From: an uncultured Planctomycetaceae bacterium
GTDB lineage: Bacteria; Planctomycetota; Phycisphaerae; SM23-33
NCBI GenBank assembly: GCA_964472875.1
Contig: CAYYMD010000005.1
Location: forward strand, 7,670-71,669
DNA length: 64,000 nucleotides
Reading direction: 5' to 3'
A program made the position numbers and the translations under genes. Of this stretch, positions 5,846 through 64,000 are shown in pieces. Position 1 is the stretch's first letter. Each line of letters begins with the position of its first letter. The notes below the pieces were generated by a model that searched no databases, was not told the DNA's origin, and worked only from the letters and a program-made list of their open reading frames with translations.

Positions 5846-7294
5846 TTACGAGCGGCCGGGTTCGGCCATGACGATGGCGTGTACGGTGCCGTCGCGTGTT
5901 TTTATGTATCCTGTGTCGCCGACACTGGCGAAGGCGTTGCATGAGAGCACTCCGGGTATACGACGGACGATTTTTCCGGTGCGGCGATCCAGCGCCACGA
6001 GCCGTCCGTTCCGGCGGGTGTCGACGTAATAAATAAGTCCGCCGGTCTCACTCAGCGGACTGCATCCCTCGGCGGCGCGCTTCCAGAGCACCCGGCCCGT
6101 GCGACGGTCAATCGCAGTTACATTCCTGCCCCTCAGATAGAGTCCCTCGGAGGTCGTCAGCAGGCACCGGGTGGGGCTGACCGCCCTGCGCCACAGTGTT
6201 CGGCGAGAGTTTTCATCGATGCAGAACAGTTTGCTGTCCATGCCGAGTTCGGTTTGTGCGAAATAAATCCGTCCGGACCCCAGCGCCACAAGCGGTCGTC
6301 CGATGGCGAACCTGCTGTCCTCGAATTCTCGGCGCCACAAAATATGCCCGGAGGACGCCTCCAGCCGCATCAGCCGCCCCGCAGTTGCTACGTAAATATA
6401 ACCGTTTCTATTTGCCGCACGGGAAGGCAGCCCCTCACGCTCGAATGACCGCGTCCACTTTACCTCGCCCGTGGATGCGTTCAGCATTCGCACCTCGCGG
6501 CCGACGGTCCAGCATACCCTGTCCTGGCCCAGTGGCGACGGCCGGGAGGGATATATCGTGTGCCCGCGCCCCCGATAGATACTTTGCCACAATTTGCCGC
6601 CGTCGGCGGCGTCCAGCGCAAGCAGGGCGATTTGCCCGTTTTGCCCCTTGGCCAGACAGAATACCCTTTTTCCGTCGGCTGCGAGATAACCGAAACTTCT
6701 GGCCGGGCAAGTCCATTTGGACTCGCCGGTGGCGGCGTCCACGGCTACCACATGTCCGTCCGTATCATCGCCGGCAACAAAATACATGTTGTCGCCGTTT
6801 ACGATGAAACCATCCGCCGTAGAAGCCCGCGCGGCCATGGCGCCTTCGTAACGCCACTTTTCAAGAAATCCGTTGCTGGCTGATGTTTTCCGCGGCTGCG
6901 ATTCGCCACTGATTATGCCCCACAAACTCACCGCCGCGATAAGTACGGCCGCGGCGCCGAAGACAGTAATGACGCGACGAATACGACGGCCGAAACGTTT
7001 CGATTTGATTTCCCGCGACACTGCATCCTGCAATCTGTATTCGAAAGCGACCGACGGCGCATCGGCGTCGCCTGAGCATTTGACGTCGTCGGCGATCCGT
7101 CGGATTTGCTCCTTGGCCTCGCGGCAGGCCGGACATTGTCCGAGGTGCTCGCGCACCCGGCAGTGTTGCTGCGGCGAAAGGCCGCCAAAGACGTACAATT
7201 CGAGATTTTCGCGGGCTTGTCGGCAGTTCATGGCCGCATCCGGATACGGGCATATCCTTCCATCAATACGCTCAAACCGTCCGCGGCGGGACAA
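5846..7294 (-). CDS. Anti-sigma factor: N-terminal zinc-finger anti-sigma domain, TM helix, periplasmic PQQ-like beta-propeller
   Basis: The N-terminus (CRQARENLELYVFGGLSPQQHCRVREHLGQCPACRE) is a ZAS/ChrR-type anti-sigma zinc finger. One TM helix follows (ITVFGAAAVLIAAVSLWGII). The rest is repeated beta-propeller blades typical of PQQ/BamB-like repeats. It overlaps the ECF sigma gene by 23 nt. Confidence 0.55.
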   Translation of the reverse strand: MSRRGRFERIDGRICPYPDAAMNCRQARENLELYVFGGLSPQQHCRVREHLGQCPACREAKEQIRRIADDVKCSGDADAPSVAFEYRLQDAVSREIKSKRFGRRIRRVITVFGAAAVLIAAVSLWGIISGESQPRKTSASNGFLEKWRYEGAMAARASTADGFIVNGDNMYFVAGDDTDGHVVAVDAATGESKWTCPARSFGYLAADGKRVFCLAKGQNGQIALLALDAADGGKLWQSIYRGRGHTIYPSRPSPLGQDRVCWTVGREVRMLNASTGEVKWTRSFEREGLPSRAANRNGYIYVATAGRLMRLEASSGHILWRREFEDSRFAIGRPLVALGSGRIYFAQTELGMDSKLFCIDENSRRTLWRRAVSPTRCLLTTSEGLYLRGRNVTAIDRRTGRVLWKRAAEGCSPLSETGGLIYYVDTRRNGRLVALDRRTGKIVRRIPGVLSCNAFASVGDTGYIKTRDGTVHAIVMAEPGRS

Positions 7295-7880
7295 TTTTTT
7301 TGGAAATGTCGCCCGAAATTTCTTCCTCTTCCCCTGTGCTGTCTTTGTACAGTCGCCGCATCCGTCCGCTTTTACGCAGTCGCCGAAGCGCCCGCTGGGC
7401 GCGTTTTTTAGCCGCCTCGGTGGAAATCCCCATCGCTGCGGCTACGTCGACGAAAGGCATCTCATGTACAATCCGCAAAGTCAATACCATCCTGTCGTCT
7501 TTACTCAGTCCGGCCAGAATGTCCGATGCGTCAATATCTTTCCATGGTGAGGAGGTGTATGAAATGCATGTGCTCCCGAATGCCTGCTGATTCATTACAT
7601 AATTTGTCCTGCATTTCTTGTGGTGCAACCGCCGTCGAATCATATCTGTGCAAACGTTGCGGAGTATCGTATAGAACCAACTCGAGAACGGCCGGGACGT
7701 GCGGAATTTCTTACGGCTGCGAATCACACGCAGGAACGCCTCCTGGACGGCGTCTTCGGCCGCGTGCCCATCGCCGGCGTGGTCCATAATTCCATTTGCC
7801 ACTGCAAGCGCAGGCGAAGTGTAACGCCGCATGAGTTCATCGAACGCATCTGCGTCGAGGCAGGCCTTGAACCGAGCCAT
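7272..7880 (-). CDS. ECF (sigma-70 family) RNA polymerase sigma factor
   Basis: Region 2 (DAVQEAFLRVIRSRKKFRTSRPFSSWFYTILRNVCTDMIRRRL) and region 4 HTH (DDRMVLTLRIVHEMPFVDVAAAMGISTEAAKKRAQRALRRL) are both recognisable. The start is placed at the internal Met (MARFKAC...) at 7880. The ORF-track start at 8087 would add an implausible 69-aa AT-rich leader. Confidence 0.7.
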   Translation of the reverse strand: MARFKACLDADAFDELMRRYTSPALAVANGIMDHAGDGHAAEDAVQEAFLRVIRSRKKFRTSRPFSSWFYTILRNVCTDMIRRRLHHKKCRTNYVMNQQAFGSTCISYTSSPWKDIDASDILAGLSKDDRMVLTLRIVHEMPFVDVAAAMGISTEAAKKRAQRALRRLRKSGRMRRLYKDSTGEEEEISGDISKKIVPPRTV

Positions 7881-8158
7881 CAGCGATTCATCCCCAGCCG
7901 TACTTTTGCGACAGGGGACACCGTAACTTTTTCTGGAACAAAACGTTGTATTTTTCTTTTTACCGATGCTGTTGTTCCTCCGGATTTCGTGTCCCCATAC
8001 GGCACAGACGCCGCATGGCCGGCCAAATCGTCCGTTTTTGAAGTTAAACTCGATAATGTTATTATGGTTTTCCAATTTTATTGACAATTATTATTCACTA
8101 TTAATTTTCTGTTGCGATATGAAGTGTGAAGAAAATTGCCGAAATCCAAAATTTCTGG

Positions 8159-9004
8159 TTACTTGCTGAAATAAAGCCAAACGCCGTAATTGAGAGAGGA
8201 ATCTTCGGGCTTATGTCGAATTATCTCGAAGTCTTCGACATCCATTTGATTCATAATCACACGAAAACGCTTGGCGTCCTTGTCCGGATTGTACTTGGGC
8301 CCGCCGATTAAATGTTTGCGGGTCAGTTTTCTTACCTCACTTTCGGGCATAGTGGGCGCCACACCGCGCCCGATGAAGGCCTTCCCGCCCGGGCGCAGTA
8401 CCCTGTGAATTTCGGCCAGACCTGTTCGCAAGTCGCTCCAGAACTGGTAACTGCCGCGCGATATTATTATATCCGCGTAATTTTTCTTGAACGGCATGTC
8501 GCAGGCATCCGCAAACACAAATCCCGTACGATGCGCAAAATTGTAATCAAGAGATTCTTGTGCAAAGTTCCGAGCGCACCACGTGTTGATATCCGTGTTT
8601 ACCCAGTAGAAACGCTTGGTTCGCTCTACTAATTCAAAAACGAGATTGCCCGAACCGCCGCCGATATCAATCCCGATTCCCGCGCGTTTTGACAGGTTAA
8701 ACCGGTCCACCAAATAATCGGCCAGTCGGGCATAAACAATCTTCCGTCTGTCGCCAATCTTATCGATTCTCGCGGCTCTTTCCGGTCCGAATTTTTCGTA
8801 ATTCGGCCGCCGCAGGCCAAATCCAATTGTCGTGAGGGGTTTTTTTACATCAAAGCCGTGGTGAGCAAAAATTTCCCGGGCACGTGGACCGGCGCACACC
8901 AATCCCGTGCGTAAAGGAACGGCCACGATTTTCGAGCCCCTTTCAGTCGGCCGGCGGCTGCGTTCATCACCCTCGCCGCCGCTTAAAAAATGTCTTGCTT
9001 TCAA
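8159..9004 (-). CDS. Class I SAM-dependent methyltransferase
   Basis: Glycine-rich SAM motif I (GIDIGGGSGNLVFEL) and post-I/II motifs (ADIIISRGSYQFW, LRPGGKAFIG). Confidence 0.6.
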   Translation of the reverse strand: MKARHFLSGGEGDERSRRPTERGSKIVAVPLRTGLVCAGPRAREIFAHHGFDVKKPLTTIGFGLRRPNYEKFGPERAARIDKIGDRRKIVYARLADYLVDRFNLSKRAGIGIDIGGGSGNLVFELVERTKRFYWVNTDINTWCARNFAQESLDYNFAHRTGFVFADACDMPFKKNYADIIISRGSYQFWSDLRTGLAEIHRVLRPGGKAFIGRGVAPTMPESEVRKLTRKHLIGGPKYNPDKDAKRFRVIMNQMDVEDFEIIRHKPEDSSLNYGVWLYFSK

Positions 9005-9066
9005 GGCAGCACTGAATTATAAAATAATATGGAATAGTCAACTTATACTGATTTAAGGATGAACAA

Positions 9067-10227
9067 ATGAATACCATGTATGCAAGGTCAATTCGGGATC
9101 GTGTTCGGAAAGATGATTATTTTCAGGCGGCGCGTCGGCGCAGGGACACATGGTTAGGCAGCAGACTTAAGCACACTGCGTTTACCCTGGTCGAACTGCT
9201 GGTGGTCATTTTCATAATCGCTATGCTGGTGGCCATACTTGTCCCCAATCTATCCAAAGCCATGAGCGTTTCAAGGCGCGTTCAGTGCGCCAAGCAACTG
9301 CACGACATGGGCGTGGCTGCCGGTGCAATTCGTTCCAGTGGGGACACGGCGTATAACCCAGAACCGCTGTTGACCAAAACTGGCTGGGGAGGGCAACTGT
9401 TGGCCAAACTTAACGAGGAATCCTTTATTTGTCCCGAAGAAGACCCCATGCTGCCCATAGACGCAGTAAGGCATCCGCACCCCATGTCGAATTTGGGGGG
9501 ATACAGCATATACAATAAAGGCCTTGGCCACTATACGCCTTTAGAAGAAGGAGCATGGATGGTCAAACTGTCACAAACACAATTTAATAATGCTAAAAAC
9601 CAGGGTTACTTACGGGACAAGGGGCGGTGGTGGAACCCGTGGACGTATGAACCGGACAACAATCCGGGACATTACTATTTATGCTATGAAGGTATGCGAT
9701 GGAAACAAATATATAATAATCGTCAAGAGAAGGAAGAACCCGACTTTGATGATATAATCATCGAGGTGGAATTACAGCCCGGAGGCGAGACACGCGTTAC
9801 TAGTAGATATCAACCGGGGCCTTGGCCTCCTAATGGATCGACGATATATACGCATGCCATGGTTAACGAGGAGGGGGAAAAGTTTTTCGACCCGCTCAAT
9901 TTCTACCCTACTCCTACTATCTTCGATGTGGACACGGGCATGTGCAGTTACGGCATCAACTATAACGATAATGTCCGCAAGCTGGAAAGTATGGGAAAGA
10001 AGGTGCTTCTGCTGGATTACGAGGCGATGTGCGCGGAAGAGGATGACGAATACTGGGAAACCGGCCAAACGGGGGACCGCGACGGCGATGGGACGCTTGA
10101 CATCGCGCGCCACAGCGGCAAAATGAACGTTCTGTACCTCGACGGATCTGTGGAGGCGAAACGTCCGGAGGAAATCAATCCCCAGGGCGATTCGAAGATT
10201 CGCAACAGGATATGGGAAGAGAACTGA
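9067..10227 (+). CDS. DUF1559 (H-X9-DG) protein with prepilin-type N-terminal cleavage/methylation domain
   Basis: FTLVELLVVIFIIAMLVAILVPNL is a class III signal / N-methylation hydrophobic segment. The C-terminal HSGKMNVLYLDGSVE is an exact H-X9-DG motif. This family is abundant in Planctomycetota and relatives. Confidence 0.7.
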   Translation: MNTMYARSIRDRVRKDDYFQAARRRRDTWLGSRLKHTAFTLVELLVVIFIIAMLVAILVPNLSKAMSVSRRVQCAKQLHDMGVAAGAIRSSGDTAYNPEPLLTKTGWGGQLLAKLNEESFICPEEDPMLPIDAVRHPHPMSNLGGYSIYNKGLGHYTPLEEGAWMVKLSQTQFNNAKNQGYLRDKGRWWNPWTYEPDNNPGHYYLCYEGMRWKQIYNNRQEKEEPDFDDIIIEVELQPGGETRVTSRYQPGPWPPNGSTIYTHAMVNEEGEKFFDPLNFYPTPTIFDVDTGMCSYGINYNDNVRKLESMGKKVLLLDYEAMCAEEDDEYWETGQTGDRDGDGTLDIARHSGKMNVLYLDGSVEAKRPEEINPQGDSKIRNRIWEEN

Positions 10228-17585: not shown

Positions 17586-17754
17586 CACCCACGAGACTCC
17601 GCCTTCAATAATAACCATAACCAAAACTAATAAATCTTTTCCGAGCCGATTGCTCTGGCTGTAAATGACTGCCGCAAGGGGAATAAACTGCCATGGTTTA
17701 AAACCACGTAGCATTGCTGCTACGGATTTCGCCCGTCCGCCTGCTCCAAAGTGG

Positions 17755-18420
17755 TTTGGGATTTGGGTATTTGGGATTTGTTTCGCATTTCGATATCAGT
17801 ATTTCGGATTTTCATATTCTCCCATCCGGCCGTGTTTGTAAGCGCCCACTGTCAAGGGGGGGATGTTTTTTTCAATATGTTGCGTTATTATCCCCGCATT
17901 CACATGCGACAGCGGGGGCTTACTAAAATTACAAAAAACGCGTGCGGCCCTGCGGCCGAATTACGAATGACGAAATTCGAATGTCGAATCAATGACGAAT
18001 GCACGAATTACGAAACAAATCCGAAATCCCGACGGGACCTTTGGGCCCGGAGGGGCCGTCGGTCCGAAATTCGAAATATGTTTATCCCCTGCATCCCTGC
18101 TGATTTGCGCGCGCAGTTTGTCCGCGGAATCGGCCATAGCGCCCGAAAAAATAAAATTTTTTATGTCTTCTCCCGGCCGTGGGTTACGAATTCCGCATAC
18201 GCCCAACAGGCGCGGTTTGCGCGCGCAAAGGCGTTGTTTCGTCCAAGTATGGAGGGAAAAGTAAAAACTTAAAACTAAAAACTGAAAACTTAAATGCTGC
18301 CCGTCGCCATGGTGAAAAATGACCAATCCCGGCGCGCCGGGATTCCCAATGTCCAATTTCCTTACAAAAAACGCCGCGGGGCGGGCGGATCTGAAATCTC
18401 AAATTTTAAATTTCAAATTC
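17755..18420. repeat. Cluster of distinct short tandem repeats inside a 1.25-kb AT-rich non-coding region
   Basis: Seen directly in the sequence. (TTTGGGA/TTTGGGTA) x3.5 at 17755-17780. Degenerate heptamer NCGAAWN about 10x at 17955-18027 and again at 18061-18077. AAAACTN x4 at 18264-18291. AAATTTY x3 at 18398-18420. The perfect palindrome TTGCGCGCGCAA occurs twice (18105-18116 and 18217-18228). A G7 tract then a T7 tract at 17856-17872. Confidence 0.7.
18325..18344. repeat. Dispersed palindromic motif, copy 2 (AATCCCGGCGCGCCGGGATT, perfect 20-nt palindrome)
   Basis: It shares the core CCGGCGCGCCGGGATTCC with copy 1 and is intergenic. Confidence 0.6.
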
Positions 18421-18833
18421 TTGTCTGCTGTCTGCCTCGAAAAAGCGCGGCTTTTGAGAGGATCGCGGGTCAGAATTATGATTAACCACTGCAATACATA
18501 CACTTACGAATTTCTGTCAAGGGTAAAAAACGCGCAATATCGCGCAAAAAGGTCTAAAAACCTGCAACAGCCCGGCACAACGCGCAAAAAACCGGCAATT
18601 CCTGAAATAACTTACAAAGACGAGCAATACAGGCCCGAGTTCCAAGTTCCTCGCAAACGTCTTGAACGCACAGCCGGGCGAAAATACTTGCTCCCTGCGC
18701 TGAATTTGTTAATTTTACATTAATCGCAAATGCTCGTATCGGTAACGGGCCCGCCGGTACGAGAATTATTCACGGGGCCTGAATAAATTGGCGATAAAAT
18801 GGTTCGTTTAACCGCCGCCAGGAAAGGTCAATT

Positions 18834-45433: not shown

Positions 45434-46165
45434 TTACGTTCTGCGCTTGCGCAGCAGAGTGATTAAGCCCCCGCCCAACAGCAGCGCAAAGGCAGCCGGC
45501 TCGGGAACAAACTCGAAATCGTCGAAGTAGGCGTCGATTTCTACATCCATTTCGTCGCCCTGGTTTTGACCACCCGGCTCGCCGCTGTTGCGTAAGCAGT
45601 TGGTCAGCGCAGTGATGGTGAACTTGTAATCTTCGATGTTATCAATAACGTTCTGGTCAGTAATATTGATCTCGTACATTTTGAAAGCGTCATCATTGAT
45701 TGAGACCTCATTTATGTCTTCGATGCTACTGTCCGTTTTCTTCTCCCATGTGAGAGTAACGGAAATCTGTCTGGCAGTTGGCGTTTCTGCTATACCGTCT
45801 CTTTTGTAAACCGATGACGCTTTAAATCTCAGCTTCGTTGTGTCCTCGGGCGCTTCGAGCATTACGCCGCTTTCCGGCTGAATAAGCGTAACGGTGGCTA
45901 CGTCAATTGTGCTGGGGAGCACCCACTCGCTGCCGTTCCAATTGTATTTAATTTCAGTGTCAGCGTGGAAAGTATCAGAGTTATCGGAATAGTCCACGAT
46001 TTCGTGTGAAGCTAATCCGGCACCAAATTCTGAATCACTGACATCCCAGTTTGCTGTACTGCCGCCTCCTGTAGAAAAGTCCCCGTTAATGATGTCCGCA
46101 CGCGCGTAGCTGCACGCCATTACGATAATCGTCGTCGCCAATGTCCTCAATGTTTTCGCCTTCAT
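45434..46165 (-). CDS. PEP-CTERM sorting-domain protein (exosortase substrate)
   Basis: Signal peptide (MKAKTLRTLATTIIVMACSYARA), a secreted Asp/Ser/Thr-rich domain, and the C-terminal motif VPEPAAFALLLGGGLITLLRKRRT (PEP plus TM plus basic tail). The start is placed at the internal Met. Confidence 0.6.
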   Translation of the reverse strand: MKAKTLRTLATTIIVMACSYARADIINGDFSTGGGSTANWDVSDSEFGAGLASHEIVDYSDNSDTFHADTEIKYNWNGSEWVLPSTIDVATVTLIQPESGVMLEAPEDTTKLRFKASSVYKRDGIAETPTARQISVTLTWEKKTDSSIEDINEVSINDDAFKMYEINITDQNVIDNIEDYKFTITALTNCLRNSGEPGGQNQGDEMDVEIDAYFDDFEFVPEPAAFALLLGGGLITLLRKRRT

Positions 46166-46385
46166 GATTCGGCCCTCGATTTTACGTCTATACTGTCCGG
46201 GCACACTGCGCCGCCCGGAATGACGCGAGCATTTTTTTCAATCGAGCTGCCTCACATAAGCTTCAAGACGTGAATTACATCGTCACATCCATTTCCTCCC
46301 GGCTAATTTATCTTACCTCGGAAATGTGTTTTCACAAAGCACAAAATGCCGGTTGCCGTAAAAAATTACGCATTCGCGCGTAATT

Positions 46386-51259: not shown

Positions 51260-51904
51260 TTGGTCCGTATGGAAGACATCGCGCGAAAACTGGCCGGCAG
51301 GTTCATCGTCATAGACGGCCCGGACGGTGCGGGCAAGTCCACGCAGATGGAAATGCTCGCCGACCGACTGGAGAAAACCGGCGCGTCACTGGTGCGGACG
51401 CGTGACCCGGGCGGAACCGTCATCGGCGACAAGATACGGGATATTCTGCTGGACGGCAGGCACGATACAATGTCCGTCGAGTGCGAGGTGATGCTTTACA
51501 TGGCCAGCAGGGCGCAACTCGTGGCGGAGGTGATTCGCCCGGCACTTGCCGAGGGCAGGTGCGTGCTGTGCGACAGGTACATCTCCGCGACGGTCGCCTA
51601 TCAGGGCGCCGGCGGGGCCGACATAGACGCCATCCGCCGCGTGGGCGAAATAGCCGTGGGAGGGCTGATGCCGGATTTGACGATAATACTGGACATTCCG
51701 GCCGATGAGGGGCTCTCGCGCCTCGGCGAGTCGCCGGATCGTATGGAGTCCAAGGATGCGGCTTTCCACAGGCGCGTGAGGGAAATGTTCCTCGAACAGG
51801 CCGAACAGATGCCGGAAAGATTCGAAGTAGCCGAGGCAACAGGACCGCCCGAGAGTGTCCACAAAAAAATCCTGGATGCAATATCTGCATACCCTTGGGA
51901 ATGA
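51260..51904 (+). CDS. tmk: Thymidylate kinase
   Basis: P-loop FIVIDGPDGAGKSTQ, the DRY motif (LCDRYISATVAYQG) and LID-region arginines. Confidence 0.85.
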   Translation: MVRMEDIARKLAGRFIVIDGPDGAGKSTQMEMLADRLEKTGASLVRTRDPGGTVIGDKIRDILLDGRHDTMSVECEVMLYMASRAQLVAEVIRPALAEGRCVLCDRYISATVAYQGAGGADIDAIRRVGEIAVGGLMPDLTIILDIPADEGLSRLGESPDRMESKDAAFHRRVREMFLEQAEQMPERFEVAEATGPPESVHKKILDAISAYPWE

Positions 51905-52052
51905 ATTTAAAATTTCTTGACAAACGACATTGAAAGGTCGATATTATAAATAGGGATAAGGGAAATTTTGATTGGATAAATTATGGCTTTGTCTTACGCG
52001 TGACATCAATAGCAAGGCAAGGCCTTTTTATTTGTAATGGGGATATTTTGAA

Positions 52053-52691
52053 ATGAAAAAGAAAGCAGCCATATTAATTGACGGTGGGTTTGTTTTAAAA
52101 AGACTATACCTTCTTATGGGTAGAACATGTCCTGAGGCCGAAGATGTATATCGATTTGCACATGCATGCTTAGGGGATGATGAAGAAATTTTCCGAATAT
52201 ACTTTTATGATTGCCCTCCTTACGAAGAAAATGCCTGCAATCCACTTGATCCCGAGCACCCGATAAACTTCGCCGAGACGAGTGTAGCAATTCGTAACAG
52301 ACGTCCGCAGCAGCAACTTTCCTTAATGCCGCACGTCGCGTTTCGCAAAGGCGAACTTTTACTGCAAGGGTGGCGATTGTCAGGCAAGTTGCAGAAAGAA
52401 ATTATCAGTAAACACAGACCGATTTGTAAGGATGATCTTTCGCCCGAACTGCGTCAGAAGCGTGTGGATATAAAAATCGGACTGGACGTAGCATGGCTTG
52501 CTTCAAAAAGGATTGTAGACAGGATAATACTGGTAACCGGAGATACGGACTTCATACCGGCGATGAAATTCGCCAGAGGCGAAGGTGCACAGGTAGTGCT
52601 TATAACGATGGGAGTAAAAGTAAAATCTTCGCTCAGGGAAAATACTGATCTGATTAGAAAAGGTTGGCCCCTGCGCGATGATGAAGCGTAG
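52053..52691 (+). CDS. NYN-domain (LabA-like) putative ribonuclease, low-GC
   Basis: Acidic PIN-like motifs are spaced as in NYN/LabA proteins: AAILIDGGFV, RIYFYDCPPYE, VDIKIGLDVAWLA, ILVTGDTDFIPA. Local GC is about 40-45% against a background above 60%. Confidence 0.6.
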   Translation: MKKKAAILIDGGFVLKRLYLLMGRTCPEAEDVYRFAHACLGDDEEIFRIYFYDCPPYEENACNPLDPEHPINFAETSVAIRNRRPQQQLSLMPHVAFRKGELLLQGWRLSGKLQKEIISKHRPICKDDLSPELRQKRVDIKIGLDVAWLASKRIVDRIILVTGDTDFIPAMKFARGEGAQVVLITMGVKVKSSLRENTDLIRKGWPLRDDEA

Positions 52692-52705
52692 GATGGACAG
52701 ATAAA

Positions 52706-53857
52706 ATGCTTCAGTTTACGGACATAGTCGGACAGGATGAGGCGATTATGCGTCTGCAGGAGGCGATGCGGTCACATCGCGCGCCGCACGCGTACATCTT
52801 CGCAGGTCCTGAGGGCGTTGGCAGGCGGACCACGGCCGAGGCACTGGCCGCGACTCTGCTCTGCCACAATGCCGCGGAGGTCGATTCGCCCGAGGCGCTG
52901 CAGCGGGCGGGCATGGACAAAATAGTCCAGGCCTGCGGCAAGTGCAGCGACTGCCGCACAGTGGCCGACGGCACACACAGTGACTATCACGTCATCCGCA
53001 AGGAACTGGCCCACTACCACCAGGACGCCAACGTCCGCAACCGCAAGATGCAGGAACTGTCGATAGACGTTATCCGCAGTTTCCTTATCGAACTGGCCGG
53101 GCGCACATCCGCCGGCGGTCGGGGCAAGGTGTTCGTGGTGCTGGAGGCGGAACTGATGAGCACCGCAGCGCAGAATGCGCTGCTCAAGACGCTCGAGGAG
53201 CCGCCGGATGGGGTGACAATCATACTTGTATGCAGCCGACCCGAGCGCCTGCTGCCCACCACGCTGAGCCGCTGTTCGATGGTGCGGTTCGTTCCGCTGA
53301 CCGCGGAATTCGTGGCGTCGCGGCTGTCCGAGGCGGGCGCGGACAAGGAACAGGCGCGTTTCTGGGCGGCGTTTACAGGCGGGTCGCTTGGCCGCGCGAT
53401 GAGACTGTCGCAAAAGGATCTTTACGAGACGAAGACCGAAATCATCCGGCGGCTGGCCTCGCCCGCGCCCGGGGAGGAGATGGAATTCGGCGAGGAACTG
53501 GCCGGCATAATGGACAATTTCGCAAAGGACATGGTCAGCGATACGAGTCAACAGGAAGGGCCGGAACTGGCCAAGACTCTCGCCGACCGTAGGGCGGCCG
53601 CCGTTCTGCTGGGCATTATCTCATCGGCCTACCGCGATGCGATGAAAATCGCCGCCGCTGCGGAGGCGGATCTGACAAACTCCGACCAGGCGGACGCCGT
53701 TAGCGCCATAGCCGCCCGCTTCGATACGGTGCGCCTGGCCGATATCATCGAACAAATGGGACGCTTTGAGCAACTGCTGTGGCGTAACTTAAACGCCAAG
53801 ATAATCTGGTCGAACGTGGCCGTCACGTGCGCATCGGGCGCGCCGCTGAACGTGTGA
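52706..53857 (+). CDS. holB: DNA polymerase III delta-prime subunit
   Basis: AAA+ clamp-loader fold (HAYIFAGPEGVGRRTTAEALAATLLC), zinc module CGKCSDC and the SRC motif (LSRCSMV). It normally sits directly downstream of tmk. Confidence 0.75.
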   Translation: MLQFTDIVGQDEAIMRLQEAMRSHRAPHAYIFAGPEGVGRRTTAEALAATLLCHNAAEVDSPEALQRAGMDKIVQACGKCSDCRTVADGTHSDYHVIRKELAHYHQDANVRNRKMQELSIDVIRSFLIELAGRTSAGGRGKVFVVLEAELMSTAAQNALLKTLEEPPDGVTIILVCSRPERLLPTTLSRCSMVRFVPLTAEFVASRLSEAGADKEQARFWAAFTGGSLGRAMRLSQKDLYETKTEIIRRLASPAPGEEMEFGEELAGIMDNFAKDMVSDTSQQEGPELAKTLADRRAAAVLLGIISSAYRDAMKIAAAAEADLTNSDQADAVSAIAARFDTVRLADIIEQMGRFEQLLWRNLNAKIIWSNVAVTCASGAPLNV

Positions 53858-53949: not shown

Positions 53950-54579
53950 ATGAAATCTGCTGAAGTTCCCAATCCGGTCGTAAGAAGAATCAGTCTATAC
54001 TTGAGACAACTCGAGGAATTCTCGGCACGCGGCATGGAGAAGGTCTCCAGCAGGGAACTGGCCGAGAGTCTCCAGCTCAGCGACGCCCAGGTACGCAAGG
54101 ACCTGGGGTACTTCGGACATTTCGGGCAGACCGGCGTGGGATATCAGGTCAGCGATCTCGTGGACGAACTCAAACGCATACTGGGCACGGATCGAATGCA
54201 CGAGGTAGTGGTTGTCGGCGCCGGCGACCTTGGCAGGGCGTTGTTGCGATACAAGGGTTTTGTGCCGAAGGGATTCGAACTCGCGGCGGCGTTCGACGTG
54301 GCGGCGGGCAAGGTCGGCAAAAAGGTCGGCTCTGTTCCCGTCTATCACATGGACAAACTCAAGGATGTAACCGCCGAACACAACGCGAAGCTGGCGGTGG
54401 TGACCGTTCCCGCCGAAGCCGCCCAGGAGGTTACCGATGCGCTGTGCGAGGCGGGAATAAAGGGAATACTGAATTTCGCCCCCACCACAATACAAACGCC
54501 TGCGGAAACCGCCGTTTACCAGGTTGATCTCGCGGCGGGACTCGAACAATTGTCTTTCCGCCTGAAAGATAAAAACTGA
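53950..54579 (+). CDS. rex: Redox-sensing transcriptional repressor Rex
   Basis: Winged-helix N-terminus (RRISLYLRQL ... SSRELAE) and a Rossmann NADH-binding domain (VVVVGAGDLGRAL). Confidence 0.85.
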   Translation: MKSAEVPNPVVRRISLYLRQLEEFSARGMEKVSSRELAESLQLSDAQVRKDLGYFGHFGQTGVGYQVSDLVDELKRILGTDRMHEVVVVGAGDLGRALLRYKGFVPKGFELAAAFDVAAGKVGKKVGSVPVYHMDKLKDVTAEHNAKLAVVTVPAEAAQEVTDALCEAGIKGILNFAPTTIQTPAETAVYQVDLAAGLEQLSFRLKDKN

Positions 54580-54729
54580 CCCGCGGCTGATGTAGCTGTC
54601 GACCGCTCAGTGCCCGAGTGCGCATATATTACGATGGATGACTATGGTTCGGACGAATAAGGCAAAGGGGACTTTTCGGAAACGTCCGACTCACCGGGTG
54701 AATAATCCGGCGTCGACCCGAACGTTAGA

Positions 54730-55041
54730 CTACTGTCCCGGTCCTTTCTGCTCCATGCCTTTCTGAAGTTTGATTTTCATCAAACGGCCGGCCTTGAACT
54801 TGACCGCCCGGCGGGGTGGAACTTTTACTCTTTCGAGCGTTTTGGGGTTCTGCGCGATGCGCTCGGCGCGATCCTTGGTCTCGAATACTCCGAAATCACG
54901 GAACTCCAGGCGGTTGCCCTTGCCAAGTTCGTCTATGATTTCGTCGAGAAAACGCTGGACCACTTCCTTGACCAGAATGCGTTTCGTGTCGGCCTTGTCG
55001 GCGATCCTGTCTACCAATTCCTTCTTTGTTACTGTATGCAT
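54730..55041 (-). CDS. HU/IHF-family nucleoid DNA-binding protein
   Basis: MHTVTKKELVDRIADKADTKRILVKEVVQRFLDEIIDELGKGNRLEFRDFGVFETKDRAERIAQNPKTLERVKVPPRRAVKFKAGRLMK shows the HU-fold arm motif. The start is placed at the internal Met. A Lys-rich tail follows. Confidence 0.65.
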   Translation of the reverse strand: MHTVTKKELVDRIADKADTKRILVKEVVQRFLDEIIDELGKGNRLEFRDFGVFETKDRAERIAQNPKTLERVKVPPRRAVKFKAGRLMKIKLQKGMEQKGPGQ

Positions 55042-55198
55042 AGCGTCACCCTTTGCCTGGGTTAAAAGAACCTTATGCTTAACCTTCGACCGGAATCCAC
55101 TCACATGGCAAAACCATGATATGCCGGTTATTTCCAACGTGCTAAATATATATTATGGCATTACCTATCAACGCCACAAGAAAAATTTTACGTATTCT

Positions 55199-56251
55199 TT
55201 ACGATTCTTCGTCGGGAAGATCGCGGCTGTGGCGGAGGTCTTCGAGTTTGTCAAGCGGTTTGCGGAGCATGTTCGTGCGTGTGGTGCGGATATTTTCGTA
55301 TGTCCGCGAGACCGTATCGAGCTGGCTGCCGAGGCGGTCTATCTCCTCATTGTATTTCTGCCACTGCTTGTCGAACTCGTGTAACAGGTTCATCACCTCG
55401 TCGGCCGCGCGCATGAGATTGGCGCTTTCGGCCGACTGGCGAATCACCGCCAGCATGGCGTACAAGGTCAGCGGGCTGGCCAGGACGACCTTGCGCGACA
55501 ACGCCTGGTCTATCATGTCCGGCCCGGCCTCCAAGGCCAGTGCGTAAACCTGCTCGCTCGGTACGAACAATATCACGTAATCGACCGTTGGTATTTTCTT
55601 GTCCACGTAACCGCGCGACGATACGGCGCGGACGTGTGAATTAAGGTCCGACACGAGTTGTTTGCAGGCCGCCTTGATTGCCTCGTCGGTTTCGGCGTCG
55701 AGGTAGGCCTTGTACGCCTCGAGCGGAAATTTCACATCCATGTTGACCTTCAGGTCGTTGGGAAGGAAGAAGGTAAAGTCCGGCCGGTCGTTGCCCGTGG
55801 CGTATTGGCTGTCCTGCTTGGCATAGTTTATACCCTCGGCCATGCCCGCCAGCCGGAGGATGTCCTCGGCCATGCGCTCGCCCCACGCGCCTCGCCGCTG
55901 CGTGCTTGCAAGCATGCGGTGCAGTTCTCCGGTGGTCTGCGAGAGTGTCTGAAGTGATTTGTCCAGTTCGCCGAAGTCCTGCTTCCTGGAAGACTCCACA
56001 CTTTGAAGGTATCCGCGCACGTGCTCGAGGCGGTCGTTGACCGCCTTGATGGCCTGGTCGATGAGTTCCTTCTTGGACTCCATCGCGGCCGCGGTCTGTG
56101 CGGCCAGGCGCTGCGAGTTGGAATCGAGCGCTTCGGTCGCCAGGGCCTTGAAGGCGTCGCGCGAGCGGGCGTAGTACACCCTGCCGATTATAAATACAAG
56201 CGCTGCGCTAATAACCGCACCCATCAAAAATCCGATAATAAAGTAAATCAT
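55199..56251 (-). CDS. rmuC: DNA recombination protein RmuC
   Basis: N-terminal TM helix, a long coiled coil and the C-terminal RmuC nuclease-like domain (VDYVILFVPSEQVYALALE). Confidence 0.8.
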   Translation of the reverse strand: MIYFIIGFLMGAVISAALVFIIGRVYYARSRDAFKALATEALDSNSQRLAAQTAAAMESKKELIDQAIKAVNDRLEHVRGYLQSVESSRKQDFGELDKSLQTLSQTTGELHRMLASTQRRGAWGERMAEDILRLAGMAEGINYAKQDSQYATGNDRPDFTFFLPNDLKVNMDVKFPLEAYKAYLDAETDEAIKAACKQLVSDLNSHVRAVSSRGYVDKKIPTVDYVILFVPSEQVYALALEAGPDMIDQALSRKVVLASPLTLYAMLAVIRQSAESANLMRAADEVMNLLHEFDKQWQKYNEEIDRLGSQLDTVSRTYENIRTTRTNMLRKPLDKLEDLRHSRDLPDEES

Positions 56252-62490: not shown

Positions 62491-62946
62491 AATCGACCTC
62501 GCCAACGTTTCAGTCTACGCCTGTTTAATGTTCCTTTTGTTTGGCACGTCTATGGTCGGTTTAAGTGGTAGCTCCTAGTAAAGTGCTACGGGTTAAAACC
62601 CGGTACCTGTTTAGCGTGTTAAAATATTTTATTACCGTCCCAAAGGTGTAGGAACGATCTGTATCTTCCGAAGTAACCACATGACGTTGCCTTCCAGCCG
62701 CAGCTTCTTCTTCCAGTAATCATCCCAGGCCTTCTTATTAGTGAATCGCTTGAGGACAATACGAGTCATCTTTGCGGCTCCGGCTCCACACCGGCCGCGG
62801 GCGATGCGCTTGTTGAACGCTTTCTATAGTGAATGTTATAGCATCGGCTGCAGTGCCGCAGGCGTATTTTTGGAAAACATGGCTACAGGGCTGATATCTA
62901 CCAGGATGCTTGCGTATATACGGCCGTCCGTTGAGCAGGTTTTCAC

Positions 62947-63055
62947 CGCTTGACGGCCGTGGGGGATTTGCGGAAAATGGCATTCATGCAGGGGTCGCCA
63001 ACATTTGACGACTGGGCGTTGGGGCGGCGGCACGGCCGTATCCCCGGCCGTCGTG
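62947..63055 (+). repeat. Direct repeat copy 1 (~110 bp), containing the start of the 62950-63351 ORF
   Basis: The segment CGCTTGACGGCCGTGGGGGATTTGCGGAAAATGGCATTCATGCAGGGGTCGCCAACATTTGACGACTGGGCGTTGGGGCGGCGGCACGGCCGTATCC is about 85% identical to 63906-64000. Confidence 0.7.
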
Positions 63056-63351
63056 TCCATGTGAACGTCAATCCCGGCGGTACTTCGCATGCGCTCAGCG
63101 TAATCGCGCTGATTGACGATTCTGGTAACGTGGCCGAGCGGATGATCCGTCCTGCGGTGATACTGCGTAAGGTCAGCCAGTCGAACCGGAGCGAGAAAGG
63201 CCCTGCAGTTCAGGCGGTGTTGATGGGCGTGTATCGTACGTTGAATCTCCGCGGCCATGCACCTCTGGCTACGATCACCTCAACCCTGCGAACTTACATG
63301 AGCACCGGCGAACTACCTCCGCTGCCGATAAAATCTGTTGCAGATGGGTAA
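62950..63351 (+). CDS. Hypothetical protein (133 aa), first copy of a tandemly duplicated gene start
   Basis: The ORF begins inside the repeated segment (MAFMQGSPTFDDWALGRRHGRIP...). GC3 is only moderate. No family was recognised. The start is ambiguous among TTG 62950, ATG 62977 and ATG 62986. Confidence 0.3.
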   Translation: MTAVGDLRKMAFMQGSPTFDDWALGRRHGRIPGRRVHVNVNPGGTSHALSVIALIDDSGNVAERMIRPAVILRKVSQSNRSEKGPAVQAVLMGVYRTLNLRGHAPLATITSTLRTYMSTGELPPLPIKSVADG

Positions 63352-63407
63352 AGTGTTACAAGAAAATATAGAATAAAACTTAAAACAATGACAGGTTAAT
63401 ATATTAT

Positions 63408-63776
63408 ATGCGAAATATTTATAAATTACGATTATTATGCGATATATTTATAGCCCTATTTTGGTTGTCGTTTTTTATATTTACATTAATAGGTAATATA
63501 ATATTAATTATAGACTTAAATGCGGGTAGGATATTCTTTAATTATTGTATGCATGCGTTATCTGATGATTTGTATATGGCTATATTTTATTATATATATT
63601 TGTTTATTTATGCTATATGGCTATATTCTGGTGGTCTAAATTCAAACCTCTGGAAGTGGTGCCCGCCCTTTGTTATTATTAACAGCGCTTTACCATTTAA
63701 AATATGTCGAATATTATTTGTGTTATTCATAAGTATGTGGTTTCCCATCTTTGCTACGATTGAATTGATAAAATAG
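63408..63776 (+). CDS. AT-rich small polytopic membrane protein (122 aa), likely horizontally acquired
   Basis: About 25% GC. It has 3-4 hydrophobic helices rich in Ile/Phe/Leu/Tyr (FIALFWLSFFIFTLIGNIILII; YMAIFYYIYLFIYAIWLY; ILFVLFISMWFPIFATI). It lies between the two repeat copies. Confidence 0.4.
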   Translation: MRNIYKLRLLCDIFIALFWLSFFIFTLIGNIILIIDLNAGRIFFNYCMHALSDDLYMAIFYYIYLFIYAIWLYSGGLNSNLWKWCPPFVIINSALPFKICRILFVLFISMWFPIFATIELIK

Positions 63777-63905
63777 GATAGTGTCCTATGATATTTAGAA
63801 GCGCCAGCAACAGGCAAGAAGCAGCGGGTGAAAGTTCCGCCCGGTGAAGGCAGTAGCGACCCACACCGAACATGATTTATTGAATTGCCTTGCTTTAGTA
63901 AACCG

Positions 63906-64000
63906 CTTGACTGCCACGGAGGATTAACGGAAAATAACGCTTATGCAGGGGTTGCGAACATTTGACGACTGGGCGTTGGGGCGGTGGCACGGTCGTATCC
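63906..64000 (+). repeat. Direct repeat copy 2, truncated by the window end
   Basis: About 85% identical to 62947-63055. It contains a second ATG at 63943 encoding MQGLRTFDDWALGRWHGRI..., a paralog of the first copy that runs off the window. Confidence 0.7.

What the first reader, a model, noticed from the sequence alone, without database searches (positions are those of the whole stretch)
51905..52705. Low-GC NYN-domain gene inserted between tmk and holB
tmk and holB are adjacent or overlapping in most bacteria. Here an ~800-bp segment of about 40-45% GC, against a background above 60%, separates them. It carries its own AT-rich upstream region and a 212-aa NYN/LabA-like putative RNase (AAILIDGGFV ... 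VDIKIGLDVAWLA ... ILVTGDTDFIPA). The compositional contrast and the interruption of a conserved gene pair argue for horizontal acquisition. NYN-domain nucleases recur in defence, toxin-antitoxin and RNA-processing contexts, so a lone NYN gene wedged into a replication-gene operon is worth examining.
Basis: partly seen in the sequence, partly recalled or inferred. Interest (0 to 1): 0.6.

Follow-up and report, generated by a model that had tools for sequence, protein, structure and literature searches.

The report
RNA-linked NYN nuclease cassette
The low-GC gene between tmk and holB is real, but it is an old, repeatedly lost two-part cassette (a short structured RNA followed by a NYN nuclease gene) from a family that also rides on plasmids and prophages and probably works as an RNA-controlled toxin or defence nuclease.

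Summary
Window 51905-52705 lies exactly between tmk (51260-51904) and holB (52706-53857). It is 42% GC against 61-63% in the flanks and encodes an intact 212-aa NYN protein (PF01936; model pLDDT 93; best fold match 2qip).

Nine of nine close NYN homologues checked sit at the same tmk|holB junction in related Phycisphaerae-type genomes, with divergence like that of the flanking genes. Eight relatives have tmk abutting holB with nothing between. One (L016) keeps a decayed remnant. So this is an old accessory insert that has been lost repeatedly.

The gene is also not alone. A sigma70-like promoter drives a short structured RNA that ends in a 13-bp terminator hairpin 20 nt before the NYN start. 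85% of family members have such a hairpin, against 29% of control genes. About 37 loci carry a conserved, covarying RNA (AUCCGAAC + UAGG hairpin + terminator) that has no Rfam match. It is sometimes divergent from or convergent with NYN, so it is a separate partner.

Homologues occur on 165 plasmids and in prophage lysogeny modules, including the lambda rex slot.

Best reading: a type III-TA/AbiF-like, RNA-controlled NYN nuclease. Toxicity is not tested.

The parts
51260..51904 (+). tmk (dTMP kinase), the left flank of the insert
   Evidence: PF02223 E 5e-48 and TIGR00041. GC3 is 0.735.
51917..51945 (+). Sigma70-like promoter of the cassette: TTGACA, 17 nt, GATATT. The predicted transcription start is near 51952.
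   Evidence: 10 of 12 consensus match. A TTGnnn-17-GAYAMT element lies at the equivalent place in most of the nine syntenic loci, read directly from the spacers printed. It is a consensus match only; no transcription data exist.
51952..52033 (+). Short structured RNA (leader or sRNA, about 82 nt). The 5' region 51952-51984 has lost the canonical AUCCGAAC + UAGG hairpin. Then come hairpin 2 and a U-run.
   Evidence: Alignment with eight other syntenic leaders and the L016 remnant. Compared with L112, about 19 nt covering hairpin 1 are missing. The class-A model R1 does not detect this copy. No Rfam family matches.
51985..52033 (+). Hairpin 2 plus U-run (intrinsic-terminator shape). 5' arm 51985-51997, loop 51998-52011, 3' arm 52012-52024, U-run 52025-52033.
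   Evidence: Model R2, built from the nine other clade members without the window, hits 51981-52034 at 38.4 bits, E about 9e-9, the top hit in 331 kb. Across the clade there are 13 pairs, 99.2% of cells paired, 7 pairs with double-sided changes, and 0 of 500 shuffles reach the covariation score. The only unpaired cell is the window's A51996/C52013.
52039..52043 (+). Shine-Dalgarno-like GGGGA, 9 nt before the ATG
   Evidence: Read directly from the sequence. Purine-rich boxes lie at the same place in the other loci.
52053..52691 (+). NYN-domain protein, 212 aa, a predicted metal-dependent PIN-like nuclease
   Evidence: PF01936 and phrog_5783 E 1e-48. AF2 pLDDT 93.3, with fold matches to 2qip and the MARF1 NYN domain. 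It deviates at 1 of 41 columns that are at least 90% conserved (H197N), which equals the family median. D10, D128, D139, D145, D164 and D166 are intact. GC3 is 0.41.
52706..53857 (+). holB (DNA polymerase III delta'), the right flank. It starts 14 nt after the NYN stop.
   Evidence: PF13177 and PF09115. In 6 of 9 syntenic loci the NYN stop overlaps the holB start by 4-13 nt.

Best explanation
Window 51905-52705 is a compact two-part accessory cassette. It has its own promoter, a short structured RNA that ends in an intrinsic terminator, and then the gene for a NYN (PIN-like) nuclease 20 nt further on.

The cassette entered the tmk|holB junction once, in an ancestor of a group of Phycisphaerae-type planctomycetes. 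It has been inherited there ever since and has been deleted or has decayed repeatedly.

I infer that it works like a type III toxin-antitoxin or AbiF-type module:
- The RNA is made in excess, because most transcripts stop at the terminator.
- Read-through gives a little NYN mRNA.
- The RNA binds the nuclease and holds it in check, and/or attenuates its expression.
- When the RNA supply falls, for example on phage infection, transcription shut-off or loss of the element, the nuclease cuts cellular or invader RNA.

What is shown: the anatomy, the conservation and covariation of the RNA, the RNA-NYN linkage in three orientations, the synteny and the pattern of loss, and carriage on mobile elements.

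What is inferred: nuclease activity, toxicity, RNA-protein binding and a defence or addiction role.

In the window's own sub-clade the 5' hairpin of the RNA has been replaced, and in the window itself it is largely deleted. Control may therefore be altered here.
For: Anatomy in the window:
- Promoter-like site at 51917-51945.
- 13-bp hairpin plus U-run ending 20 nt before the ATG, which leaves no room for a separate NYN promoter.

RNA is real and conserved:
- Clade hairpin 2 is 99.2% paired, with 7 of 13 pairs covarying and 0 of 500 shuffles as good.
- A model built without the window finds the window copy at E about 9e-9.
- Class-A RNA (AUCCGAAC, 5-bp stem with UAGG loop, terminator hairpin): hairpin 1 has no broken pair in 31 sequences and 3 compensatory pairs. 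On 48 model-aligned sequences, 11 of 12 pairs covary and 0 of 500 shuffles match.
- Model R1 finds it in about 37 loci, each time next to NYN, within 520 kb.

Family-wide trait:
- A hairpin plus U-run lies within 70 nt upstream in 61 of 72 NYN genes against 43 of 149 control ORFs, odds ratio 13.7, p = 2e-15.
- Other RNA classes (B, C) track NYN clades.

RNA is a separate partner, not only a leader:
- It is divergent in L026, L027, L036 and L052 and convergent in L048.
- L016 keeps the RNA at 94% identity to L005 although NYN has decayed and the flanking genes are only 76-79% identical.
- Tandem double units occur in L056 and L127.
- No recurrent protein partner exists.

Accessory and mobile behaviour:
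- The site is empty in 8 relatives, including the sister pairs L005/L014 and L006/L010 at 100% bootstrap.
- Homologues occur on 165 plasmids, 129 of them conjugative, and in 65 phage records.
- In phages the gene lies in the lysogeny module: cI-NYN-N in ev099, repressor-NYN-integrase in Javan85, and type II TA-NYN-integrase in phiE202. These copies also carry the promoter, hairpin and U-run.
- It is present in 275 of 5,426 E. coli genomes.

Nuclease likely active: invariant acidic residues and a confident NYN fold.

Precedent: the RCd22 RNA neutralises the AbiF toxin in cis and in trans (PMC12373285).
Against: - No data on toxicity, binding or transcription exist.
- The toxin fold is not one of the three known type III toxin folds, and the RNA is usually a single unit rather than tandem repeats.
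- The module has kept one chromosomal position across lineages whose HolB proteins are only about 50% identical. That is unusually stable for a TA or defence module and could mean domestication.
- In 6 of 9 lineages the NYN stop overlaps the start of the essential holB gene, an odd place for a toxin gene.
- In the window the canonical 5' hairpin of the RNA is missing while NYN is intact. This is awkward if that hairpin is the neutralising element.
- Chromosomal copies sit mostly among housekeeping genes rather than in defence islands.
- The hairpin-1 module also occurs in about 9 viral contigs without NYN, so it is not exclusive to this system.
- The PADLOC match is partial only.
- The trees are simple NJ trees, and monophyly of the syntenic NYNs has only 57% bootstrap support.
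Confidence: 0.45

Rival explanations
1. Autoregulated housekeeping RNase. The RNA is simply the 5' leader or attenuator of the NYN mRNA. NYN, or another factor, binds or cleaves it to set its own level. NYN itself is a non-toxic RNA-processing enzyme that this clade has domesticated into the tmk-holB operon.
For: - The RNA is on the same strand immediately upstream of NYN in about 32 of 37 class-A loci.
- The terminator lies directly before the RBS.
- Positional conservation is long-lasting, with purifying selection in nine lineages.
- NYN and holB show translational overlap.
- Chromosomal neighbours are mostly housekeeping genes.
- Published predictions link bacterial NYN proteins to tRNA or rRNA processing (PMC5499597).
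Against: - Divergent and convergent arrangements in 5 loci cannot act in cis on the NYN mRNA.
- I could see no alternative antiterminator pairing.
- The RNA is retained at 94% identity after NYN decay in L016.
- The gene is lost cleanly in close relatives, which argues against an essential housekeeping role.
- Carriage on plasmids and in prophage lysogeny modules is typical of accessory conflict genes.
Confidence: 0.25
2. Dedicated ribonucleoprotein. The RNA is a cofactor, guide or obligate substrate of NYN, so an RNA-protein complex acts on a target. It is not an inhibitor.
For: - The single-stranded 5' AUCCGAAC and the UAGG loop are conserved across phyla.
- RNA class tracks NYN clade.
- Linkage holds in any orientation.
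- The model shows an extra beta-sheet insert in NYN relative to 2qip.
Against: A seed that is invariant across phyla would point to one fixed target, and none was identified. Window, L003, L008 and L107 have lost or replaced that seed while keeping NYN intact. There is no precedent for NYN RNPs.
Confidence: 0.1
3. One reading: a lone NYN gene recently acquired by horizontal transfer into the tmk-holB operon of this genome.
For: - GC3 is 0.41 against 0.74 and 0.77 in the flanks.
- The junction is empty in eight relatives.
- The family is present on plasmids and phages.
Against: - Nine of nine close homologues occupy the same junction in diverged genomes.
- NYN divergence is about the same as that of the flanking genes.
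- The syntenic NYNs form a clade with a clade-specific homologous hairpin.
- A decayed remnant in L016 shows that loss occurs.
- Low GC3 persists in all lineages.
- No integrase, transposase or repeat flanks the insert.
Confidence: 0.03
4. The hairpin plus U-run is only the tmk terminator and the promoter-like site is chance, so there is no functional RNA in the window.
For: - The window copy lacks the canonical hairpin 1 and is not found by R1.
- The fold z-score of the whole 91-nt leader is only -1.67.
- Terminators covary anyway.
Against: - The same arrangement precedes NYN genes that have no tmk upstream, in many phyla and on mobile elements.
- The promoter-like box lies upstream of the terminator at a conserved distance in most syntenic loci.
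- The loop contains invariant positions.
- Empty tmk|holB sites need no such terminator.
Confidence: 0.05

Closest known systems
NYN domain, LabA-like / COG1432 group (Pfam PF01936; structure 2qip; cyanobacterial LabA)
   Same: It passes the Pfam gathering score. It has the PIN-like fold, with 2qip as the best structural match and the MARF1 NYN domain also matched. The conserved acidic residues are present.
   Different: Only the C-terminal third matches the Pfam profile. There is no PDB relative detectable by sequence. The protein carries an extra beta-sheet insert of about 50 residues. It belongs to a tight stand-alone subfamily (phrog_5783; 750 cluster representatives at E<=1e-10). The literature lists the group's function as unknown (PMC5499597).
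Type III toxin-antitoxin systems (ToxIN, CptIN, TenpIN). The architecture described here is from my own knowledge.
   Same: The order is promoter, then a small structured RNA, then an intrinsic terminator, then an endonuclease gene. There is no protein partner. The system is carried on plasmids and phages and is patchily distributed.
   Different: The toxin fold is NYN/PIN-like rather than ToxN-like. The RNA is usually one unit, not 2-5.5 tandem repeats; two units occur in L056 and L127. The RNA is sometimes divergent from or convergent with the gene. Toxicity and neutralisation are untested.
AbiF (Abi_2) with the RCd22 / abiF-motif RNA of a C. difficile prophage (PMC12373285)
   Same: A prophage-borne toxic RNase-type protein is preceded by a conserved structured ncRNA. 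That RNA represses it in cis and neutralises it in trans by direct binding.
   Different: The protein fold is unrelated (HEPN-like Abi_2 versus NYN) and the RNA is unrelated. Nothing has been shown experimentally for NYN.
VapC-type PIN toxins of type II TA systems
   Same: They share the PIN-like nuclease superfamily, a small stand-alone toxin-sized protein, and scattered chromosomal and plasmid copies.
   Different: No protein antitoxin gene lies upstream. No recurrent protein neighbour was found. An RNA occupies that place.
Prophage exclusion genes of the immunity region, such as lambda rexAB between cI and N. The map position is from my own knowledge.
   Same: In phage ev099 the NYN gene lies between the cI-type repressor and N. 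In Javan85 it lies between the repressor and the integrase.
   Different: The proteins are unrelated, and no exclusion phenotype is known for NYN.

Membership tests
NYN domain (PF01936, LabA-like/COG1432) | Match to the family profile above the curated cutoff | tested here: met
   33.9 bits against a cutoff of 24.2, E 5.6e-8, over residues 134-199 only. TIGR00288 scores far below its cutoff, 24 against 178.
NYN domain (PF01936, LabA-like/COG1432) | PIN-like alpha/beta fold | tested here: met
   The AF2 model has pLDDT 93.3. Foldseek finds 2qip at E 5e-7 and the MARF1 NYN domain 5yaa at E 2e-3.
NYN domain (PF01936, LabA-like/COG1432) | Conserved acidic residues that bind the metal ion | tested here: met
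   D10, D139, D145 and D164 are invariant, and D128 and D166 are at least 90% conserved. All are present in the window protein. Their clustering in 3D was not measured.
NYN domain (PF01936, LabA-like/COG1432) | Nuclease activity | not testable with these tools
   Needs biochemistry. The literature says no member of this group had been tested (PMC5499597).
phrog_5783 (phage protein family, unknown function) | Full-length profile match | tested here: met
   E 1.1e-48, residues 2-202 against profile positions 1-218 of 246.
Type III toxin-antitoxin system | Gene order of promoter, antitoxin RNA, intrinsic terminator, toxin gene | tested here: met
   Window: 51917-51945, then about 51952-52033, then the ATG at 52053. 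Family: 61 of 72 against 43 of 149 controls. Five of about 37 class-A loci have another orientation.
Type III toxin-antitoxin system | Antitoxin made of tandem direct repeats that the toxin processes | tested here: not met
   The window and most loci have a single unit. Two tandem units occur only in L056 and L127. Processing is not testable.
Type III toxin-antitoxin system | Toxin of the ToxN/AbiQ, CptN or TenpN families | tested here: not met
   The protein has the NYN fold. No paper in the library links NYN to type III TA.
Type III toxin-antitoxin system | Toxicity of the protein and neutralisation by the RNA | not testable with these tools
   Needs expression and rescue experiments.
Recently acquired genomic islet (horizontal transfer) | Composition unlike the host | tested here: met
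   GC3 is 0.41 against 0.74 and 0.77. The same offset is seen in all nine syntenic lineages, so it does not date the event.
Recently acquired genomic islet (horizontal transfer) | Absent from close relatives at the same site | tested here: inconclusive
   Absent in 8 relatives but present in 9 lineages at the same site. No near-identical relative of the window genome was available.
Recently acquired genomic islet (horizontal transfer) | Mobility genes or repeats at the borders | tested here: not met
   The borders are the tmk stop and the holB start. There is no integrase, transposase or flanking repeat.
Known anti-phage defence system (PADLOC-DB v2) | Full-length match to a system component | tested here: not met
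   Only residues 138-196 match positions 231-287 of the 310-position PDLC01154 'NYN' profile, E 6e-8.
Any Rfam RNA family (for the upstream RNA) | Covariance-model match | tested here: not met
   No match at E<=1 over the leader in the window or in 19 other loci. None at gathering score in the whole window.

The most novel reading that the evidence does not exclude
The stand-alone NYN proteins of this subfamily and their adjacent small RNAs form a previously undescribed, widespread class of RNA-antitoxin (type III-like) toxin-antitoxin or abortive-infection systems with a PIN-like toxin. The subfamily corresponds to phrog_5783 and has about 750 to 1,700 cluster representatives. At least three RNA classes co-evolve with the protein. 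Phages that carry the hairpin-1 RNA module without NYN, next to DUF3800-VII RNAs, would then be using it as an antitoxin mimic. In one planctomycete clade the cassette has been locked for a very long time in front of the essential holB gene, possibly because its promoter now drives holB.
Probability: 0.3. Interest if true: 0.8.

Novelty: new variant of a known kind. Interest (0 to 1): 0.6.

Why it matters
Bacterial LabA-like NYN proteins are a large group with no established biochemical role. A small structured RNA turns out to be a near-constant companion of one compact NYN subfamily. That subfamily sits on conjugative plasmids and in the lysogeny modules of lambdoid, P2-like and streptococcal prophages. 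Together these facts give a concrete, testable model: an RNA-controlled nuclease of the type III TA or AbiF kind. They also give handles to test it, including E. coli prophage copies present in 5% of complete genomes.

If confirmed, this would add a fourth toxin fold and new RNA classes to the RNA-antitoxin systems. It would also annotate hundreds of 'NYN domain-containing protein' genes.

For genome reading there is a caution. A strong GC3 deficit and an interrupted conserved gene pair do not prove recent transfer. Here the deficit has persisted across lineages whose flanking proteins are only about 50% identical.

Tried and rejected
1. Known RNA families. Rfam found nothing over the leader in the window or in 19 other loci.
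2. Solved relatives by sequence. None at E<=0.01, so a fold search was needed.
3. A conserved protein partner (protein antitoxin, helicase and so on). Clustering of 248 neighbouring ORFs gave at most 4 loci for any family. Pfam on 20 nearest neighbours gave mostly housekeeping genes.
4. A functional link to replication genes. Zero of 80 wider-family loci have tmk or holB nearby.
5. Decay of the window's NYN, to match its degraded RNA. It has 1 deviation in 41 conserved columns, the family median. My first impression from R176G did not hold at the 90% threshold in the larger alignment.
6. The -8 overlap shared by empty sites as evidence for an ancestral empty state. This was rejected because the TGA lies inside holB's own ATGCCTGA start, so any upstream ORF in that frame stops there.
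7. MAFFT alignment of hairpin 2 across all class-A RNAs failed; RNAalifold found only hairpin 1. This was solved by seeding a covariance model from a homogeneous subset.
8. Exclusive RNA-NYN linkage. This was rejected by an RNA-first scan of viral contigs, where only 1 of about 10 genuine motif copies has NYN.
9. An exact 20-mer scan of viral contigs found nothing.
10. Literature searches for NYN with small RNA, type III TA, anti-phage or RNA motif gave no description of this pairing.
Full report
1. THE OBSERVATION

The ORF map shows tmk at 51260-51904, a 212-aa ORF at 52053-52691 and holB at 52706-53857, all on the + strand. Their family assignments are unambiguous. The finding's interval 51905-52705 is exactly the space between tmk and holB.

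That interval is 42.2% GC. The ORF is 44.8% and the spacer 31.8%, against 61-63% for the two flanks. GC3 is 0.41 in the ORF against 0.74 and 0.77 in the flanks. The window as a whole is 56.9% GC, so 'background above 60%' is true of the flanks only. Among 800-bp windows this is the second-deepest trough, about 2.9 SD below the mean.

The quoted peptides are present. PF01936 is matched above its cutoff, though only over residues 134-199. The match to phrog_5783 is full-length, E 1e-48. An AlphaFold2 model built on 39 homologues is confident (pLDDT 93.3). Its best solved neighbours are the NYN protein 2qip and the MARF1 NYN domain. There is no PDB relative detectable by sequence.

2. THE INSERT IS NOT RECENT AND NOT UNIQUE

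A homology search found a compact family of stand-alone proteins of about 205-220 aa. The best hits are named Phycisphaerae.

I looked up the genomic places of eight of the closest homologues, at 57-66% identity. Every one lies between tmk and holB, in contigs whose outer flanks differ. With the window that makes nine lineages. L112 also shares the divergent hypF gene.

A holB-anchored scan of one genome per species returned 14 related loci. tblastn and ORF tracing gave the following:
- Eight loci have tmk and holB overlapping or at most 17 bp apart, with no NYN.
- One locus is a NYN+ locus already seen.
- One locus, L016, has a 497-bp gap.
- L021 is more distant (holB 40% identical) and has a 156-bp gap without NYN.
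- L018 and L020 have no tmk upstream, and L023 is truncated at the contig end.

The L016 gap holds a leader 94% identical in its RNA unit to that of L005. It also holds the first 13 codons of a NYN gene (MKTVAILSDGEFV), followed by unrelated repeat-rich sequence. This is a decayed copy.

On a tmk+holB neighbour-joining tree the NYN+ lineages are scattered. Two sister pairs differ in state with 100% bootstrap support: L005+ with L014-, and L006+ with L010-. L016 lies just outside the first pair at 99%. L005 and L014 are 87-88% identical in tmk and holB at the DNA level, yet L014 lacks the whole module of about 840 bp, cleanly.

Among NYN+ lineages, NYN is 49-64% identical, against 47-58% for tmk and 50-56% for holB. 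In a family tree the syntenic NYNs form one clade. Bootstrap support for that clade is 57%, and mean identity is 62% within it against 46% to the others. Host and NYN trees show no supported conflict.

The most economical reading is one ancestral insertion followed by vertical descent and several losses. The simple trees cannot exclude some exchange.

3. LOW GC IS A STANDING PROPERTY

In all nine syntenic lineages NYN GC3 is 17-34 points below the flanking genes. It is about 0.5 in hosts whose flank GC3 is 0.71-0.88, and only L003 is higher. Across 61 wider-family loci with enough flank, NYN is more AT-rich than its surroundings in 87%, by 5 points on average.

Compositional contrast therefore does not date the acquisition. 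It fits the general tendency of accessory genes to be AT-rich, or a constraint specific to this gene. I cannot tell which.

4. THE 'AT-RICH UPSTREAM REGION' IS AN RNA GENE OR LEADER

Aligning the tmk-NYN spacers showed three conserved elements:
- a promoter-like element, TTGACA-17-GATATT in the window at 51917-51945;
- a small hairpin;
- a 13-bp hairpin with a U-run that ends about 20 nt before the start codon.

In the clade that long hairpin is 99.2% paired, against 40-50% when the partners are slid. Seven pairs have changes on both sides, and 0 of 500 shuffles reach the covariation score. A covariance model built from the nine other members, without the window, recovers window 51981-52034 as the best hit in 331 kb (38.4 bits, E about 9e-9). 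It finds nothing at the empty junctions.

5. THE RNA IS A FAMILY-WIDE COMPANION OF NYN

A NYN-centred scan of metagenome contigs gave 80 loci at 36-54% identity. None is next to tmk or holB.

Their upstream regions nevertheless show the same plan: a sigma70-like promoter, a structured RNA of 65-88 nt, a U-run, an RBS and then NYN. A hairpin plus U-run lies within 70 nt of the start in 61 of 72 NYN genes, against 43 of 149 other ORFs of the same loci (odds ratio 13.7, p = 2e-15).

The commonest type, class A, begins nnAUCCGAAC. A 5-bp stem capped by UAGG follows, then a linker, then a long hairpin with a pyrimidine-rich 5' arm. For hairpin 1, no pair is broken in 31 sequences and three pairs have compensatory changes. 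Model R1 finds the RNA in about 37 loci, always beside NYN, within 520 kb searched. On the model-fitted alignment, 11 of 12 pairs covary (with the caveat that such an alignment leans towards the model).

A second type, class B, is an extended three-part hairpin with a conserved asymmetric loop. RNA class follows NYN clade. Rfam has no matching family.

In four distinct loci the class-A RNA is divergent from NYN, and in one it is convergent just downstream. It is therefore a transcription unit of its own and not merely a 5' UTR. No protein-coding neighbour recurs.

6. THE WINDOW'S COPY IS A DERIVED VARIANT

Within the syntenic clade, L005, L006, L110, L112 and (diverged) L108 have the canonical 5' module. 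L003, L008 and L107 have other small hairpins in its place. Relative to L112, the window lacks about 19 nt covering it, which leaves only a weak A/U stem. R1 does not detect the window copy, and the whole 91-nt leader folds only modestly better than shuffles (z = -1.67).

The protein is not decaying. It has one deviation (H197N) in 41 columns that are at least 90% conserved, which equals the family median, and all acidic residues are intact.

7. MOBILE-ELEMENT CARRIAGE

Full-length homologues at 31-38% identity occur on 165 plasmids, 129 of them conjugative. The hosts are Campylobacter, Xanthomonas, Aeromonas and Thermus. They also occur in 65 phage records.

Three unrelated temperate phages carry the gene in the lysogeny module:
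- In lambdoid phage ev099 it lies between the cI-type repressor and N. From my own knowledge, lambda has rexAB there.
- In Javan85 it lies between the repressor and the integrase.
- In P2-like phiE202 it lies between a type II TA pair and the integrase.

These copies too have a promoter, a long hairpin and a U-run just upstream. The ev099-type cassette is present in 275 of 5,426 complete E. coli genomes. An exhaustive search counts 1,692 cluster representatives at E<=1e-3 and 750 at E<=1e-10.

8. MECHANISM

Shown by the analysis: the anatomy, the covariation, the linkage, the patchy distribution and the carriage on mobile elements.

Inferred: the RNA is produced in excess because of the terminator, NYN is made by read-through, and the RNA restrains the nuclease by binding and/or attenuation. 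This is the logic of type III TA systems (architecture from my own knowledge) and of AbiF/RCd22. There, an upstream structured RNA represses the toxin in cis and neutralises it in trans (PMC12373285).

Three observations fit an antitoxin-like RNA. L016 retains the RNA after NYN decay. Tandem double units occur in L056 and L127. The gene sits in lysogeny-module positions in phages.

Five observations count against it:
- There are no functional data.
- The toxin fold is different, and the RNA is usually a single unit.
- The positional stability is very long, and NYN overlaps the essential holB.
- The window lacks hairpin 1 but has an intact NYN.
- Chromosomal neighbours are housekeeping genes.

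I put this reading at about 0.45. An autoregulated housekeeping RNase with a cis leader gets 0.25, and a dedicated RNP 0.1. One further inference is untested: the cassette promoter may now contribute to holB expression, which would help explain the long retention.

9. A CONTROL THAT LIMITS THE CLAIM

An RNA-first scan of viral contigs for the hairpin-1 module found 21 contigs. About ten look genuine, and only one of those (L127) has NYN beside the motif. Four lie 28-400 nt downstream of a DUF3800-VII RNA (RF02967).

The 5' module is therefore not exclusive to NYN loci. It might be a generic RNA module. It might be an att-related sequence. It might be a phage-borne mimic of the antitoxin; from my own knowledge, phage PhiTE carries a pseudo-ToxI. 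This is unresolved.

10. COMPARISON AND NOVELTY

The protein is a member of the NYN/LabA-like group and of phrog_5783. The literature lists that group as 'function unknown' (PMC5499597). The cassette works like a type III TA or AbiF module in architecture, but it fails two defining features of type III TA: toxin family and tandem repeats. I therefore do not file it as a member.

I found no Rfam family and no paper describing an RNA partner of NYN genes. I rate the whole as a new variant of a known kind, with interest 0.6.

The window-specific story, an old accessory cassette at tmk|holB, is moderately interesting. The family-wide RNA-NYN pairing is the part worth following up.

CAVEATS
- Promoters are consensus matches only.
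- Covariance-model E-values come from a shortened calibration.
- Trees are neighbour-joining on short alignments.
- The organism is inferred only from the names of relatives.
- Most loci were collected through NYN or holB, so the linkage statistics are conditional on that sampling.

Noticed in passing
L113-L133 (viral contigs), e.g. L131:9586-9724, L120:2550-2843, L117:8899-9282, L129:1297-1808: The AUCC..GCCGGUAGGCCGGC hairpin-1 module occurs in about 10 viral contigs, and only one of them (L127) has NYN beside it. Four copies lie 28-400 nt downstream of a DUF3800-VII RNA (RF02967). L120 also has a twister-sister ribozyme, and L113 and L117 have a serine recombinase and an XRE-type repressor nearby.
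   Followed up: partly
L016:3504-4000: This is a decayed cassette. The promoter and RNA unit are kept (94% identical to L005) together with 13 NYN codons. Unrelated sequence follows, with two copies of CCCCGTACGGGGG in inverted context, which may be a small inserted repeat element.
   Followed up: partly
L077, L078, L081, L087, L089, L091, L093, L094, L096, L099-L102 (about 65-70 nt upstream of NYN): A second RNA type, class B, forms a three-part extended hairpin (GGCUGC.. GGGUG ..ACAUGUAAGA.. GGGG/CCCC ..CACC ..GCGGCC) plus a U-run. It shows visible compensatory changes and goes with its own NYN clade. A third type, class C, is seen in L055, L057, L060, L061 and L075.
   Followed up: partly
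L056:2655-2710 and L127 (reverse strand, 8381-8462): The 28-29-nt unit AAUCCnnn-stem-UAGG-stem is duplicated in tandem. In L127 the two stems differ (GCCGG/CCGGC and GCAGA/UCUGC) while the flank and the loop are kept.
   Followed up: no
L104:3163-5666 (phage ev099), L136 (Javan85), L135 (phiE202): NYN homologues sit in prophage lysogeny modules: cI-NYN-N, repressor-NYN-integrase, and type II TA-NYN-integrase. The ev099 protein is longer (285 aa) and has a C-terminal extension.
   Followed up: partly
window 52677-52708, and the NYN/holB junctions of L003, L006, L008, L107, L108 and L110: In 6 of 9 syntenic loci the NYN stop codon overlaps the holB start by 4-13 nt, which suggests translational coupling of an essential gene to the cassette. 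In the window the gap is 14 nt.
   Followed up: no
window 62800-64000: This is the deepest GC trough of the window, about 39% GC. It holds an AT-rich ORF (63408-63776, 122 aa, very hydrophobic) and a 133-aa ORF (62950-63351). Neither has a Pfam match, and the patch runs off the window end.
   Followed up: partly
window 7272-10227, 17751-18723, 45434-46204: Milder low-GC patches (46-52% GC) hold an ECF-type sigma factor, a class I methyltransferase, a protein with a type IV pilin N-methylation motif, and three ORFs without Pfam matches.
   Followed up: partly
L074:231-388 (-) and L047:1237-1318 (-): A group II intron D1-D4 domain and a tRNA gene lie a few hundred bases upstream of two NYN cassettes. 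Two other loci (L028, L029) have an N6-methyltransferase-Mrr fusion next to the cassette. L042 has a phage integrase and L052 an IS1 transposase.
   Followed up: no
window 53950-56251: Downstream of holB lie rex (redox-sensing repressor), an HU-type DNA-binding protein and rmuC. This is an ordinary chromosomal housekeeping context with no mobility genes.
   Followed up: yes
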